64,000 bases of DNA from the NCBI RefSeq assembly GCF_009914755.1, contig NC_060941.1; one strand, given 5' to 3'. This document shows, piece after piece, positions 16,009 through 64,000 of the stretch. The position numbers were made by a program, and so were the translations under genes. Origin of the DNA: the human T2T-CHM13v2.0 reference genome, Homo sapiens. Each line of letters starts with the position of its first letter. Position 1 is the first letter of the stretch. Under the pieces are notes generated by a model, which worked only from the letters and a program-made list of their open reading frames with translations, had not been told where the DNA came from and did no database searches.

Positions 16009-19000
16009 TCAATTCCCACTTATGAGTGAGAATATGCGGTGTTTGGTTTTTTGTTCTTGTGATAGTTTACTGAGAATGATGACTTCCAATTTCATCCATG
16101 TCCCTACAAAGGACATGAACTCATCCTTTTTTATAGCTGCATAGTATTCCATGGTGTATATGTGCCACATTTTCTTAATCCAGTCTATCATTGTTGGACA
16201 TTTGGGTTGGTTCCAAGTCTTTGGTATTGTGAATAATGCCACAATAAACATACGTGTGCATGTGTCTTTATAGCAGCATGATTTATAGTCCTTTGGGTAT
16301 ATACCCAGTAATGGGACGACTGGGTCAAATGGTACTTCCAGTTCTAGATCCCCCTGAGGAATCGCCACACTGACTTCCACAATGGTTGAACTAGTTTACA
16401 GTCCCACCAACAGTGTAAAAGTGTTCCTATTTCTCCACATCCTCTCCAGCACGTGTTGTTTCCTGACTTTTTAATGATTGCCATTCTAACTGGTGTGAGA
16501 TGGTATCTCATTGTGGTTTTGATTTCCATTGCTCTGATGGCCAGTGATGATGAGCATTTTTTCATTTGTTTTTTGGCTGCATAAATGTCTTCTTTTGAGA
16601 AGTGTCTGTTCATGTCCTTCATCCACTTTTTGATGGGGTTGTTTGTTTTTTTCTTGTAAATTTGTTTGAGTTCATTGTAGATTCTGGATATTAGCCCTTT
16701 GTCAGATGAGTTGATTGCGAAAATTTTCTCCCATTTTGTAGGTTGCCTGTTCTCTCTGATGGTAGTTTCTTTTGCTGTGCAGAAGCTCTTTAGTTTAATT
16801 AGATCCCATTTGTCAGTTTTGGCTTTTGTTGCCATTGCTTTTGGGGTTTGAGACATGAAGTCCTTGCCCATGCCTATGTCCTGAATGGTAAAGCCTAGGT
16901 TTTCTTCAACGGTTTTTAAGGTTTTAGGTCCAACGTTTAAGTCTTTAATCCATCTTGAATTGATTTTTCTATAAGGTGTAAGGAAGGGATCCAGTTTCAG
17001 CTTTCTACATATGGCTAGCCTGTTTTCCCAGCACCATTTATGAAACAGGGAATCCTCTCCCCATTGCTTGTTTTTCTCAGGTTTGTCAAAGATCAGATAG
17101 TTGTAGATATGCGGCGTTATTTCTGAGGGCTCTGTTCTGTTCCATTGATCTATATCTCTGTTTTGGTACCAGTACCAGGCTGTTTTGGTTACTGTAGCCT
17201 TGTAGTATAGTTTGAAGTCAGGTAGTGTGATGCCTCCAGCTTTGTTCCTTTGGCTTAGGATTGACTTGGTGATGCGGGCTCTTTTTTGGTTCCATATGAA
17301 CTTTAAAGTCGTTTTTTCCAATTCTGTGAAGAAAGGCATTGGTAGCTTGATGGGGATGGCATTGAATCTGTAAATTACCTTGGGCAGTATGGCCATTTTC
17401 ACGATATTGATTCTTCCTACCCATGAGCATGGAATGTTCTTCCATTTGTTTGTATCCTCTTTTATTTCCTTGAGAAGTGGTTTGTAGTTCTCCTTGAAGA
17501 GGTCCTTCACATCCCTTGTAAGTTGGATTCCTAGGTAATTTATTCTCTTTGAAGCAGTTGTGAATGGGAGTTCACTCATGATTTGGCTCTCTGTTTGTCT
17601 GTTATTGGTGTATAAGAATGCTTGTGATTTTTGTACATTGATTTTGTATCCTGAGACTTTGCTGAAGTTGCTTATCAGCTTAAGGAGATTTTGGGCTGAG
17701 ACAATGGGGTTTTCTAGATATACAATCATGTCATCTGCAAACAGGGACAATTTAACTTCCTTTTCTCCTAATTGAATACCCTTTATTTCCTTCTCCTGCC
17801 TAATTGCTCTGGCCAGAACTTCCAACACTATGTTGAATAGGAGTGGTGAGAGAGGGCACCCTGTCTTGTGCCAGTTTTCAAAGGGAATGCTTCCAGTTTT
17901 TGCCCATTCAGTATGATATTGGCTGTGGGTTTGTCATAGATAGCTCTTATGATTTTGAGATACGTCCCATCAATACCTAATTTATTGAGAGTTTTTAGCA
18001 TGAAGGGTTGTTGAAATTTGTCAAAGTCCTTTTCTGCATCTATTGAGATAATCATCTGGTTTTTGTCCTTGGCTCTGTTTATATGCTGGATTACATTTAT
18101 TGATTTGTGTATATTGAACCAGCCTTGCATCCCAGGGATGAAGCCCACTTGATCATGGTGGATAAGCTTTTTGACGTGCTGCTGGACTCGGTTTGCCAGT
18201 ATTTTATTGAGGATTTTTGCATCGATGCTCATCAAGGATATTGGTGTAAAATTCTCTTTTTTTCTTGTGTCTCTGCCAGGCTTTGGTATCAGAATGATGC
18301 TGGCCTCATAAAATGAGTTAGAGAGGATTCCCTCTTTTTCTATTGATTGGAATAGTTTCAGAAGGAATGGTACCAGTTCCTCCTTGTACCTCTGGTAGAA
18401 TTCGGCTGTGAATCCATCTGGCCCTGGACTCTTTTTGGTTGGTAAGCTATTGATTATTGCCACAATTTCAGATCCAGTTATTGGTCTATTCAGAGATTTA
18501 ACTTCTTCCTGGTTTAGTCTTTGAGGGTGTATGTGTCGAGGAATTTATCCATTTCTTCTAGATTTTCTAGTTTACTTGCATAAAGGTGTTTGTAGTATTC
18601 TCTGATGGTAGTTTGTATTTCTGTGGGATCGGTGGTGATATCCCCTTTATCATTTTTTATTGCGTCTATTTGATTCTTCTCTCTTTTTTTCTTTATTAGT
18701 CTTGCTAGCGGTCTATCAATTTTGTGGATCCTTTCAAAAAACCAGCTCCTGGATTCATTAATTTTTTGAAGGGTTTTTGTGTCTCTATTTCCTTCAGTTC
18801 TGCTCTGATTTTAGTTATTTCTTGCCTTCTGCTAGCTTTTGAATGTGTTTGCTCTTGCTTTTCTAGTTCTTTTAATTGTGATGTTAGGGTGTCAATTTTG
18901 GATCTTTCCTGCTTTCTCTTGGGGGCATTTAGTGCTATAAATTTCCCTCTACACACTGCTTTGAATGCATCCCAGAGATTCTGGTATATTGTGTCTTTGT

Positions 19001-19833
19001 TCTCATTGGTTTCAAAGAACATCTTTATTTCTGCCTTCATTTCGTTATGTACCCAGTAGTCATTCAGGAGCAGGTTGTTCAGTTTCCATGTAGTTGAGCG
19101 GTTTTGAGTGAGATTCTTAATCCTGAGTTCTAGTTTGTTTGCACAGTGGTCTGAGAGAGAGTTTGTTATAATTTCTGTTCTTTTACATTTGCTGAGGAGA
19201 GCTTTACTTCCAAGTATGTGGTCAATTTTGGAATAGGTGTGGTATGGTGCTGAAAAAAATGTATATTCTGTTGATTTGGGGTGGAGAGTTCTGTAGATGT
19301 CTATTAGGTCCGCTTGGTGCAGAGCTAAGTTCAATTCCTGGGTATCCTTGTTGACTTTCTGTCTCGTTGATCTGTCTAATGTTGACAGTGGGGTGTTAAA
19401 GTCTCCCATTATTAATGTGTGGGAGTCTGTCTCTTTGTAGGTCACTCAGGACTTGCTTTATGAATCTGGGTGCTCCTGTATTGGGTGCATATATATTCAG
19501 GATAGTTAGCTCTTCTTGTTGAATTGATCCCTTTACCATTATGTAATGGCCTTCTTTGTCTCTTTTGATCTTTGTTGGTTTAAAGTCTGTTTTATCAGAG
19601 ACTAGGATTGCAACCCCTGCCTTTTTTTGTTTTCCATTTGCTTGGTAGATCTTCCTCCATCCCTTTATTTTGAGCCTATGTGTGTCTCTGCACGTGAGAT
19701 GGGTTTCCTGAACACAGCACACTGATGGGTCTTGACTCTTTATCCAATTTGCCAGTCTGTGTCTTTTAATTGGAGCATTTAGTCCTTTTACATTTAAAGT
19801 TAATATTGTTATGTGTGAATTTGATCCTGTCAT
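16009..19833 (-). pseudogene. L1 ORF2 (endonuclease/reverse transcriptase), multiply frameshifted
   Basis: Fragments MTGSNSHITILTLNV (19833), 18705-19445, 17828-18463, 16344-17828 (LFADDMIVY) and 16009-16380. Confidence 0.95.
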
Positions 19834-62427: not shown

Positions 62428-64000
62428 AATAAAAAATGATAAAGGGGATATCACCACCGATCCCACAGAAATACAAACTACCATCAGAGAATACTACAAA
62501 CACCTCTACGCAAATAAACTAGAAAATCTAGAAGAAAGGGATAAATTCCTCGACACATACACTCTCCCAAGGCTAAACCAGGAAGAAGTTGAATCTCTGA
62601 ATAGACCAATAACAGGATCTGAAATTGTGACAATAATCAATAGCTTACCAACCAAAAAGAGTCCAGGACCAGATGGATTCACAGCTGAATTCTACCAGAG
62701 GTACAAGGAGGAACTGGTACCATTCCTTCTGAAACTATTCCAATCAATAGAAAAAGAAGGAATCCTCCCTAACTCATTTTATGAGGCCAGCATCATGCTG
62801 ATACCAAAGCTGGGCAGAGACACAACCAAAAAAAAGAATTTTAGACCAATATCCTTGATGAACATTGATGCAAAAATCCTCAATAAAATACTGGCAAACC
62901 GAATCCAGCAGCACATCAAAAAGCTTATCCACCATGATCAAGTGGGCTTCATCCCTGGGATGCAAGGCTGGTTCAATATACACAAATCAATAAATGTAAT
63001 CCAGCATATAAACAGAACCAAAGACAAAAATCACATGATTATCTCAATAGATGCAGAAAAGGACTTTGACAAAATTCAACAACTCCTTCGTGCTAAAAAC
63101 TCTCAATAAATTAGGTATTGATGGGACGTACCTCAAACTAATAAGAGCTATCTATGACAAACCCACAGCCAATATCATACTGAATGGGCAAAAACTGGAA
63201 GCATTCCCTTTGAAAACGGGCACAAGACAGGGATGCCCTCTCTCACCACTCCTATTCAACACAGTGTTGGAAGTTCTGGCCAGGGCAATTAGGCAGGAGA
63301 AGGAAAAAAGGGTATTCAATTAGGAAAAGAGGAAGTCAAATTGTCCCTGTTTGCAGATGACATGATTGTATATCTAGAAAACCCCATTGTCTCAGCCAAA
63401 AATCTCCTTAAGCTGATAAGCAACTTCAGCAAAGTCTCAGGATACAAAATCAATGTACAAAAATCACAAGCATTCTTATACACCAATAACAGACAAACAG
63501 AGAGCCAAATCATGAGTGAACTCCCATTCACAACTGCTTCAAAGAGAATGAAATACCTAGGAATCCAAATTACAAGGGACGTGAAGGACCTCTTCAAGGA
63601 GAACTACAAACCACTCCTCAAGGAAATAAAAGAGGATACAAAGAAATGGAAGAACATTCCATGCTCATGGGTAGGAAGAATCAATATCGTGAAAATGGCC
63701 ATACTGCCCAAGGTAATTCATAGATTCAATGCCATCCCCATCAAGCTACCAATGACTTTCTTCACAGAATTGGAAAAAACGACTTTAAAGTTGATATGGA
63801 ACCAAAAAAGAGCCTGCATTGCCAAGTCAATCCTAAGCCAAAAGAACAAAGTTGGAGGCATCATGCTACTTGACTTCAAACTATACTACAAGGCTACAGT
63901 AACCAAAATAGCATGGTACTGGTACCAAAACAGAGATATAGATCAATGAAACAGAACAGAGCCCTCAGAAATAACGCCGCATATCTACAACTATCTGATC
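62428..64000 (+). mobile_element. 5'-truncated young L1PA ORF2 segment, running off the right edge of the window
   Basis: ORFs 62627-63109, 63051-63323 and 63341-63949 ([10 protein letters not shown]), frameshifted RT. Confidence 0.95.

What the first reader, a model, noticed from the sequence alone, without database searches (positions are those of the whole stretch)
16840..63800. Three separate young L1s share private ORF2 substitutions: possible local inter-L1 gene conversion
Compared with the recalled L1HS/L1PA consensus, copy A (16-18 kb, PA2-type 3'UTR) and copy B (45.7-47.8 kb, PA5-type 3'UTR) share non-consensus changes: MSQT (K>Q; ~16850/~46175), PYRK (T>R; ~16969/~46295), GEDS (K>E; ~17057/~46383), LPMP (T>P; ~17336/~46657), NRVQ (I>V; ~18187/~47509) and MSI (N>S; ~18229/~47550). 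PFTTASK (I>T) is in A, B and copy C (62.4-64 kb). AEKDF is shared by A and C. FNTV, EDTKK and silent AAAACGGGCAC, AGGGACGTG and CCACTCCTC are shared by B and C. Most changes are AT>GC and none of those listed is simple CpG decay. Independent insertions from different subfamilies should not share such a patchwork. Inference: recurrent, GC-biased non-allelic gene conversion among neighbouring L1s over tens of kb and in both orientations, i.e. local concerted evolution.
Basis: partly seen in the sequence, partly recalled or inferred. Interest (0 to 1): 0.8.

Follow-up and report, generated by a model that had tools for sequence, protein, structure and literature searches.

The report
Neighbouring L1 copies share private variants
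Five old L1 retrotransposon copies lying within about 150 kb beside the chromosome 17 centromere carry small sets of mutations found nowhere else in the genome, which is best explained by DNA repair copying short patches between neighbouring copies.

Summary

The key haplotypes are private to this neighbourhood of the T2T genome:
- 3457G+3461C+3498G occurs in A and B only, 2 of 4941 copies.
- 4628G+4716G occurs in A and B only, 2 of 9482.
- 4210C+4237G in its local form occurs in four copies, all on chr17 at 27.97-28.13 Mb: B, C and two copies outside the window, D and E.
- 4144G+4163A occurs in C and E only.

The copies are separate insertions. Their flanks are not homologous, their 5' structures differ, and A and B have different 3'UTR types.

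Some listed variants are not private. 3461C is common, 4349C is in 8 of 29 relatives, 3734C is in 65 copies, and 3812G+3855C is in 11 copies.

The best reading is patchy non-allelic gene conversion between neighbouring L1s (about 0.7). Direction and date are unresolved, and GC bias is only suggestive. The copies remain 4-6% apart, so 'concerted evolution' overstates it. This is a known kind of process that is little documented for L1.

The parts
15791..21816 (-). Copy A: full-length L1PA-type copy with broken ORFs. 'Apos' in this report = 21684 - window position + 1.
   Evidence: ORF fragments. BLAST of A against the window. The 5' end is read directly and the 3' poly-T. The best dispersed relatives are 96-97% identical.
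45103..47826 (-). Copy B, 3' part (Apos 3181-5886). It has an older 3'UTR type than A.
   Evidence: 93.2% identity to A over 2709 bp. A and B differ by 10.7-12.0% in Apos 5401-5886; the best dispersed hits to this 3'UTR are 93-94% identical.
47827..48283 (+). Copy B, inverted 5' piece (Apos 2739-3195). The junction is at 47826/47827, the layout expected from twin priming (an inference).
   Evidence: 93.9% identity to A on the opposite strand. No unique A-B sharing is seen here.
62417..64000 (+). Copy C. It is 5'-truncated at about Apos 3024 and runs off the window to about window 65265. Two further partners lie outside the window and so cannot be listed as parts. Copy D is at chr17:27972834-27973696 (+), which would be window -51166 to -50304; only Apos 3376-4247 was fetched. 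Copy E is at chr17:28123672-28126174 (-), which would be window 99672 to 102174; Apos 3385-5886 was fetched.
   Evidence: 95.8% identity to A. One search, with L071, maps C to Apos 3024-5871. D and E. Both carry 4174C, 4210C and 4237G. D shares 4075T with B. E shares 4032G with B, and 4144G and 4163A with C.
18181..18232 (-). A-B private haplotype 1 in A: 3457G (MSI), 3461C, 3498G (NRVQ).
   Evidence: the pattern matches only this place and its B counterpart in the whole genome; 4941 copies match the degenerate form.
47503..47554 (-). A-B private haplotype 1 in B. B has three private changes of its own interleaved with it (3463G, 3475C, 3487G).
16963..17062 (-). A-B private haplotype 2 in A: 4628G (GEDS) and 4716G (PYRK).
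   Evidence: only A and B match; 9482 copies match the degenerate form.
46289..46388 (-). A-B private haplotype 2 in B. It is bounded 7 bp further on by lineage site 4723, where B has T and A has C.
46764..46801 (-). B copy of the local 4210C+4237G haplotype. It lies inside a run of 142-143 bp identical to C and E (Apos 4164-4306).
   Evidence: the four copies with this form are all on chr17 at 27.97-28.13 Mb; identical runs.
63611..63648 (+). C copy of the local 4210C+4237G haplotype (EDTKK and the silent CCACTCCTC change).
   Evidence: C and E are identical over 177 bp, Apos 4129-4305.
63545..63576 (+). C copy of the C-E private haplotype 4144G+4163A.
   Evidence: this 32-mer occurs only here and in E (chr17:28125389-28125420).

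Best explanation
A, B, C, D and E are separate L1PA insertions of roughly similar age, scattered over about 150 kb beside the chr17 centromere. After insertion, breaks in one copy were now and then repaired from a neighbouring copy on the same chromosome instead of the allelic partner. This is non-allelic (ectopic) gene conversion, and it moved that neighbour's own mutations across.

Among B, C, D and E it left an ordinary tract of about 140-180 bp (Apos 4129-4306).

Between A and B it left six to eight single-site patches confined to a 1.4-kb zone (Apos 3457-4835). I read these as one or a few long heteroduplexes whose mismatches were mostly restored and only sometimes converted, with a lean towards G/C.

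Shown:
- the haplotypes are confined to this neighbourhood;
- the copies are independent insertions;
- B is a mosaic.

Inferred:
- the repair mechanism;
- patchy heteroduplex repair;
- B as the usual recipient.
For: 1. Local-only haplotypes.
- 3457G+3461C+3498G is in A and B only, 2 of 4941.
- 4628G+4716G is in A and B only, 2 of 9482.
- 4210C+4237G with the local spacer is in 4 copies, all within chr17:27.97-28.13 Mb, out of 14 matches.
- 4144G+4163A is in C and E only.

2. None of 29 A relatives, 8 B relatives or 29 copies picked for likeness to A's 86-mer carries the A-B set.

3. The copies are independent insertions.
- A window self-BLAST finds only repeat-to-repeat matches.
- The 3' flanks of C and E differ.
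- A is full length, B is inverted and truncated, and C is truncated at 3024.
- B's 3'UTR is 10.7-12% from A's but 93-94% identical to many dispersed copies.
- A has the younger state and B, C and E the older state at the non-CpG sites 3392, 3612 and 4723.

4. B is a mosaic. It shares rare states with A at 3457-3498, 3734 and 4628-4835. It shares them with C, D and E at 3812-3855 and 4032-4237.

5. The longest identical runs of B-C, B-E, C-E and B-D all fall on Apos 4129-4306.

6. A-B sharing is confined to Apos 3457-4835. There is none in 4845-5886 or in 2739-3456, apart from two common polymorphisms.

7. Chance is excluded: 6 shared rare states against 0.33-0.98 expected, and 5 of 1830 dispersed pairs reach 4 or more.

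8. Known behaviour fits. Alu copies within less than 10 kb show raised conversion (passage in PMC6598467 citing Aleshin and Zhi 2010). Human non-crossovers are GC-biased and can leave disjoint tracts (abstract of PMC4404656).
Against: - Inside the smallest A-B tracts (3457-3498 and 4628-4716), A and B still differ at 8 of 131 sites (6.1%). That is no lower than the 5.5% overall. No classical A-B tract exists, and the longest A-B identical run is 89 bp and lies elsewhere.
- A single long tract in either direction is ruled out by lineage sites 3392, 3612 and 4723, which are interleaved with the shared sites. The A-B case therefore needs patchy repair or several very short events, which is an assumption.
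- Some shared variants exist in dispersed copies: 3812G+3855C in 9 other copies, one of which (chr13) also matches B's 3'UTR well, and the 3734C word in 63 other copies.
- The GC bias of the shared sites does not differ from that of the private changes (p = 0.53).
- The background copies were picked by similarity and lean towards little-diverged, younger-looking copies. 'Rare' is therefore relative to that sample. Only the pattern counts are genome-wide.
- No ortholog was available, so no change of state over time is shown.
Confidence: 0.72

Rival explanations
1. Shared rare source lineages. A and B (and separately B, C, D and E) were copied from rare source elements that already carried these variants. 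Their closeness on the chromosome is coincidence, or an unknown bias for nearby reinsertion.
For: - Divergence is not reduced inside the smallest A-B tracts (8 of 131 sites), so the sharing is about as old as the copies.
- 3812G+3855C is in 9 dispersed copies, and one of them (chr13:80.98 Mb) is also among the best matches to B's 3'UTR.
- The 3734C word is in 65 copies.
- 4716G is in 2 of 29 and 4349C in 8 of 29 A relatives.
Against: - There are no other carriers of the A-B haplotypes among 4941 and 9482 matching copies. That leaves room for at most about 6-10 unseen carriers if 30-50% of carriers are detectable.
- Two offspring of one rare source landing 29 kb apart in 3.1 Gb is of the order of 1 in 50,000 (my arithmetic).
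- All 4 carriers of the local 4210C form lie within 152 kb.
- A and B differ in 3'UTR type and at lineage sites 3392, 3612 and 4723.
- B shares with A in some segments and with C, D and E in others, which no single source gives.
- No local reinsertion is known for L1 (my knowledge).
Confidence: 0.1
2. Old DNA-level duplication. The local copies descend from one or two insertions that were duplicated locally long ago, and were later rearranged so that flank homology was lost.
For: Physically linked duplicates give the same statistic:
- L015/L018 on chr15 share 28 rare sites at 0.5% divergence.
- L003/L026 on chr20, 20 kb apart and inverted, share 11 rare sites spread along the whole element, with symmetric private counts of 28 and 26.

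The region is pericentromeric, where duplications are common (my knowledge).
Against: - There is no non-repeat homology between the flanks of A, B and C in the window, and the 3' flanks of C and E differ.
- The 5' ends differ: full length, inversion at about 3181, and truncation at 3024.
- A-B shared sites are confined to 1.4 kb rather than spread along the element.
- Odd-site counts are unequal, A 54 against B 101 over Apos 3181-5886. The 3'UTR types differ.
- The local copies are no closer to each other (4.0-6.5%) than to dispersed copies (3.2-5.6%).
Confidence: 0.08
3. Parallel mutation. The same sites mutated independently in neighbouring copies because they are hypermutable, or because a regional GC-biased process fixed the same changes.
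For: - 3577A (in A, B and C) is a CpG decay seen in 4 of 29 and 1 of 8 relatives.
- 4458/4459 are alternative decay products of one CpG.
- 3461C and 4174C are CpG states.
- B has a strongly GC-biased spectrum, 32 W>S to 7 S>W against 377:357 in pooled dispersed copies, p = 2e-4.
Against: - The unique sites are not CpG decays.
- They are individually rare. None of the 100 rows listed has 3457G and 1 of 100 has 3498G. One of the 100 rows listed has 4628G (my reading of the listings).
- Their joint occurrence in two copies only, both here, is not what independent hits give: less than 0.2 copies are expected genome-wide for haplotype 1 (my arithmetic).
Confidence: 0.04
4. Assembly artefact. Reads from one copy were mixed into another during assembly.
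For: None from the calls. The region is near a centromere.
Against: - The copies differ by 4-6.5% overall.
- The shared sites are single bases interleaved with private differences, not blocks of identity.
- The source is a haploid telomere-to-telomere assembly (hub annotation).
- No read data could be examined.
Confidence: 0.02

Closest known systems
Local Alu-Alu non-allelic gene conversion (Zhi 2007; Aleshin and Zhi 2010)
   Same: Independent retroelement insertions lying close together are more alike than their history allows. The rate depends on distance and identity. I saw this only as a passage in PMC6598467 and in PMC8230782. The 2007 paper is recalled.
   Different: - Here the elements are L1s of 3-6 kb, not 300-bp Alus.
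- The distances are 15-97 kb between pairs that share variants, with the five copies spanning about 152 kb, against the less than 10 kb quoted for Alu.
- The evidence is haplotypes unique in a complete genome rather than a statistical excess over many pairs.
Reported L1 gene conversion (Burton et al. 1991 in mouse; Myers 2002 and Vincent 2003 in human)
   Same: One L1 copy takes over sequence from another L1.
   Different: - As I recall them, those cases are replacements of an old copy by a young active subfamily, with unknown or distant donors.
- Here fixed, broken copies exchange short patches with identifiable neighbours.
- Of Burton 1991 I saw only a reference-list entry. The other two are recalled.
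- A phrase search for L1 gene conversion found only that entry. The broader searches listed no study of neighbouring L1s by title or abstract.
Non-allelic gene conversion between segmental duplicates and gene paralogues
   Same: Short tracts are copied between nearby paralogues on one chromosome. The outcome is mosaic paralogues, with gene trees that change along the sequence (passages in PMC6598467).
   Different: - The partners here are not duplicates of each other but separate insertions, already several per cent apart.
- Homogenisation is slight. Only Apos 4129-4306 looks converted in the usual sense.
GC-biased, clustered non-crossover conversion at meiotic hotspots (Williams et al. 2015)
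   Same: GC alleles are favoured and several disjoint tracts lie close together (abstract). This matches the patchy, mostly AT-to-GC A-B sharing and B's 32:7 spectrum.
   Different: - That work concerns allelic events seen in pedigrees.
- Here the partner is a paralogue, the events are ancient, and no hotspot could be shown.
- No match to the recalled 13-mer hotspot motif lies inside B.

Membership tests
Non-allelic gene conversion between dispersed repeats | The partners are independent insertions, not duplicates of one another | tested here: met
   No non-repeat homology between flanks. Different 5' structures. Different 3'UTR types and lineage sites.
Non-allelic gene conversion between dispersed repeats | The partners share derived variants that are absent from the rest of the family | tested here: met
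   2 of 4941. 2 of 9482. 4 local copies among 14 matches. 2 copies only. Not met for the 3734C word (65 copies) or for 3812G+3855C (11 copies).
Non-allelic gene conversion between dispersed repeats | A contiguous tract of raised identity bounded by discordant sites | tested here: inconclusive
   Met for B, C, D and E at Apos 4129-4306, with identical runs of 119-177 bp. Not met for A-B: 8 differences in 131 bp inside the smallest tracts, and the longest identical run (89 bp) lies elsewhere.
Non-allelic gene conversion between dispersed repeats | Mosaic relationships along the sequence | tested here: met
   B groups with A at 3457-3498, 3734 and 4628-4835. B groups with C, D and E at 3812-3855 and 4032-4237.
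Non-allelic gene conversion between dispersed repeats | A change of state at an orthologous copy on a dated branch, giving direction and time | not testable with these tools
GC-biased gene conversion | Excess of AT-to-GC over GC-to-AT among the transferred sites, compared with ordinary substitutions | tested here: inconclusive
   Shared sites 10:3 against private changes 43:23, p = 0.53. If A is the donor, 7 of 17 W>S against 1 of 15 other variants were transferred, p = 0.04. B's own changes are 32:7 against a background of 377:357, p = 2e-4.
Segmental duplication | Homology continues into the flanks, and the copies share ends and structure | tested here: not met
Dispersed L1 sub-lineage (subfamily marker) | The same haplotype is present in unlinked copies genome-wide | tested here: not met
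   Not met for the four local haplotypes. Met for 3461C, 4349C, 3734C and 3812G+3855C.
   No Dfam or RepeatMasker library was available. Only the relative statement was tested: A's 3'UTR is of the type of its low-divergence relatives, and B's is a different, dispersed type.

The most novel reading that the evidence does not exclude
Copy B sat in a long-lived break-prone site, such as a past recombination hotspot. This would make it both a sink for GC-biased repair and the hub that took up patches from at least four L1 neighbours up to about 100 kb away, in either orientation.

Three observations would be explained at once:
- B's 32:7 AT-to-GC excess.
- B's raised divergence, limited to Apos 3181-4830 (3.7% against 1.5% in 4831-5430).
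- B is the copy that shares with all of A, C, D and E, while A shares nothing with D or E.

If general, L1s would exchange sequence over far longer distances than shown for Alu. Divergence-based ages and source-lineage trees of L1 copies would then be locally distorted.
Probability: 0.3. Interest if true: 0.6.

Novelty: new member of a known kind. Interest (0 to 1): 0.5.

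Why it matters
L1 copies are dated and sorted into subfamilies and source lineages on the assumption that each copy mutates on its own after insertion. This is a case where that assumption fails. 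In a complete genome, the donor and the recipient can be named because the haplotypes occur nowhere else.

The case shows that fixed, broken L1s tens of kb apart, in either orientation, can serve as repair templates for each other. It offers a concrete locus for dating such events in ape assemblies.

It also suggests a simple genome-wide test: look for haplotypes that occur in only two or a few copies and ask whether those copies are neighbours. That test could measure how common such exchange is for L1, as has been done for Alu.

Tried and rejected
- **Dispersed sub-lineage.** Best-hit searches with A, with B and with A's 86-mer found no carrier of the A-B set. These hits lean towards little-diverged copies, so I moved to whole-genome pattern counts. 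Those rejected a sub-lineage for four haplotypes. They upheld it for 3734C and for 3812G+3855C.
- **Segmental duplication.** Rejected on the flanks.
- **Old L1 as donor.** The old L1 in the window (54431-56490) does not carry the odd states: 1 of 17, 2 of 41 and 4 of 19 odd sites of A, B and C match it.
- **One long tract between A and B.** Rejected in either direction by the interleaved lineage sites.
- **Recent conversion between A and B.** Rejected, because there is no long identical run.
- **Hotspot motif.** The recalled 13-mer has 9 matches in the window, none inside B. This is uninformative for past hotspots.
- **Target-site duplications of A.** Not evident by eye. I did not pursue this.
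- **Subfamily naming.** Not possible without a repeat library.
- **Supplements.** I opened no supplementary files. Those of Aleshin and Zhi 2010 and of L1 subfamily papers could bear on how usual this is.

Full report
**What is there**

The window is human chr17:28,024,001-28,088,000 (T2T-CHM13, hub annotation), just beside the centromere. It holds three L1PA-type copies that overlap in ORF2.
- A is at window 15791-21816 on the minus strand and is full length. Its 5' end is read. NCBI's masked stretch stops at 21684.
- B is at 45103-47826 on the minus strand, with an inverted 5' piece at 47827-48283 on the plus strand.
- C is at 62417 to beyond 64000 on the plus strand, and starts at about L1 position 3024.

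I number L1 positions as Apos = 21684 - window position + 1. BLAST gives A-B 93.2% identity over 2709 bp and A-C 95.8% over 1574 bp. All three have broken reading frames. They are fixed, decayed copies rather than very young ones.

**Checking the observation**

Solved L1 ORF2p (8uw3) has K, T, K, T and I where A has Q, R, E, P and T, so the recalled consensus was right at those five sites.

In DNA terms the shared states are:
- A and B: 3457G, 3461C, 3498G, 3734C, 4349C, 4628G, 4716G and 4835C.
- A, B and C: 3577A and 4128C.
- B and C: 3812G, 3855C, 4174C, 4210C, 4237G and 4458T.
- A and C: 3658A.

**Are these markers of a dispersed lineage?**

The whole genome could be searched.
- A's best dispersed relatives are 96-97% identical (40 of 9424 candidates scored). 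B's are 94-95% (40 of 13660 scored). Each copy is therefore closer to unlinked copies than to its neighbour.
- None of 29 A relatives carries 3457G, 3498G, 3734C, 4628G or 4835C.
- None of 8 B relatives carries these or 4716G.
- None of 29 copies chosen for likeness to A's 86-mer carries more than two of the first three.

Such best hits lean towards little-diverged copies and could miss an old, decayed lineage. So I counted haplotypes directly with gapped patterns over the whole genome, where the tool reports whole counts.

| Haplotype | Copies found |
|---|---|
| 3457G+3461C+3498G | 2 (A and B) of 4941 matching the degenerate form |
| 4628G+4716G | 2 (A and B) of 9482 |
| 4210C+4237G | 14; the 4 with the local spacer are all on chr17: 27,973,654 (D), B, C and 28,125,317 (E); the other 10 have a different spacer and are dispersed |
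| 4144G+4163A | 2 (C and E) |
| 3812G+3855C | 11: B, C and 9 dispersed |
| 3726C+3734C word | 65, dispersed |

Other evidence against privacy:
- 3461C is in about a quarter of the 100 rows listed (my reading).
- 4349C is in 8 of 29 A relatives.
- 3577A is a CpG decay.
- 4174C and 3461C are undecayed CpG states.

Four multi-site haplotypes, however, are confined to this 152-kb neighbourhood.

**Chance**

In Apos 3385-4845, A has 28 rare states and B has 51, where rare means 5% or less of 61 dispersed copies. They share 6, against 0.33 expected if one change in three hits the same base, or 0.98 if every change does.

Of the 69 mapped sequences, 63 had at least 1400 covered positions. Six were dropped for coverage, and C was scored separately. 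Among the 1830 pairs of dispersed copies:
- 1601 share none, 188 share one, 26 share two and 10 share three.
- Five share four or more.
- The top two of those five are physically linked pairs: L015/L018 on chr15 and L003/L026 on chr20, 20 kb apart.

**Are the local copies duplicates?**

No.
- A self-BLAST of the window finds only L1-to-L1 and short (about 200-300 bp) repeat-to-repeat matches.
- The 3' flanks of C and E differ.
- The 5' structures differ.
- In Apos 5401-5886, B is 8-10.4% from the majority of A's relatives, while A is 1.6-2.7% from it. That stretch of B still has many dispersed relatives at 93-94%.
- At the non-CpG sites 3392, 3612 and 4723, A has the state of its young-looking relatives, while B, C and E have the other state.
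- Pairwise distances among A-E (4.0-6.5%) are no smaller than distances to unlinked copies (3.2-5.6%).

**Anatomy of the sharing**

B is the hub.
- B shares rare states with A at 3457-3498, 3734 and 4628-4835.
- B shares with C at 3812 and 3855, with D at 4075, and with E at 4032.
- B shares 4174, 4210 and 4237 with all of C, D and E.
- A shares nothing rare with D or E.
- C and E also share 4144G and 4163A.

For B, C, D and E there is a normal-looking tract. The longest identical runs of B-C (143 bp), B-E (142 bp), C-E (177 bp) and B-D (119 bp, cut short by D's end) all fall on Apos 4129-4306.

For A and B there is no such tract.
- The shared sites lie only within Apos 3457-4835. There are none in 4845-5886, and none unique in 2739-3456.
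- They are interleaved with private differences, 8 in the 131 bp of the two smallest tracts, and with the lineage sites above. Site 4716G lies only 7 bp from 4723.
- A single long tract is therefore excluded in either direction.

The pattern fits one or a few long heteroduplexes in which most mismatches were restored and a few converted. Several very short events would also fit. That step is inference.

**GC bias**

- Of 16 shared sites with a clear ancestral state, 10 are AT to GC, 3 are GC to AT and 3 are GC to GC. Sites where the majority state held less than 85% of 37 copies were dropped.
- This does not differ from the private changes of A, B and C taken together (43:23, p = 0.53).
- B itself stands out. 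Its own changes are 32:7, against 377:357 pooled over 61 dispersed copies (p = 2e-4). A is 10:5, C 10:12, D 9:7 and E 14:14.
- B's rare-site density is 3.7% in Apos 3181-4830 but 1.5% in 4831-5430.
- If A is taken as donor, 7 of its 17 AT-to-GC variants were passed on, against 1 of 15 others (p = 0.04).
- 4716G and 4349C occur in some of A's relatives (2 and 8 of 29) more often than in B's (0 and 1 of 8). This weakly points to A as donor and B as recipient.

**Comparison with what is known**

- Raised conversion between Alu copies within less than 10 kb is described. I saw a passage in PMC6598467 citing Aleshin and Zhi 2010 and passages in PMC8230782.
- GC bias and disjoint tracts in human non-crossovers are described in the abstract of PMC4404656.
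- For L1, a phrase search for 'L1 gene conversion' and five variants found one paper. That paper held only a reference-list entry to Burton et al. 1991.
- Two broader searches listed no study of neighbouring L1s by title or abstract. I read none of those papers beyond the passages named.
- Human L1 conversion reports (Myers 2002, Vincent 2003) are recalled, not seen.

This is therefore a new instance of a known process. It is notable for the distances between sharing pairs (15-97 kb), the number of partners (five) and the clean, whole-genome proof that the haplotypes are local.

**Limits**

- No other primate genome was available, so neither direction nor date is shown.
- No repeat library was available, so the PA2/PA5 labels are untested.
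- The background copies were chosen by similarity.
- D was fetched for Apos 3376-4247 only, and E for 3385-5886 only.
- No reads were examined.

**Verdict**

GC bias and 'concerted evolution' are overstated, and several listed variants have ordinary causes.

Noticed in passing
window 45103-47826 (copy B), Apos 3181-4830 against 4831-5430: B's own substitutions are strongly AT-to-GC biased: 32:7 against 377:357 in dispersed copies, p = 2e-4. They are twice as dense in the ORF2 part as in the next 600 bp (3.7% against 1.5%). This looks like a local GC-biased substitution cluster.
   Followed up: partly
L003 (chr20:55246946-55251407) and L026 (chr20:55227434-55231895): Two L1 copies lie 20 kb apart in opposite orientation. 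They share 11 rare variants spread over the whole element, with 28 and 26 private ones, at 1.9% divergence. This is either an old inverted duplication or another case of exchange between neighbours. Their flanks were not examined.
   Followed up: partly
L015 and L018 (chr15:19.32 Mb and 18.23 Mb): A pair of L1 copies is 0.5% apart, with 28 shared rare variants and 6 and 9 private ones. These are evidently parts of a pericentromeric segmental duplication.
   Followed up: no
L071 positions about 1300-1400 (chr17:28089300-28089400) and the first 73 bases of L072 (chr17:28123600-28123672): The sequences just beyond the poly-A tails of C and E look like diverged alpha-satellite monomers. This resemblance is recalled and not tested. 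Tandem Repeats Finder found no 171-bp array inside the window itself.
   Followed up: no
one search hits on chr13:11.2 Mb, chr14:8.1 Mb, chr15:14.0 Mb, chr21:8.3 Mb and chr20:31.95 Mb: Ten copies carry 4210C+4237G with a different spacer base. Half of them lie in acrocentric short arms or pericentromeres, so they probably count as few independent insertions multiplied by duplication.
   Followed up: no
window 54431-56490 (+), and 13363-14431 and 14718-14988: An old L1 is 75-77% identical to A over Apos 3624-5868. There are older L1 3' fragments just downstream of A, including a 271-bp piece 90.8% identical to A's 3'UTR. None carries the shared odd states.
   Followed up: yes
window 21685-21816: A's 5'UTR continues 132 bp beyond the end of NCBI's masked stretch, to the canonical L1 5' end.
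   Followed up: yes
window 3714-4338: Two adjacent repeats of about 300 bp are 81% identical to each other (period 337). Their opening bases look Alu-like (a recalled resemblance). They are unrelated to the finding.
   Followed up: no
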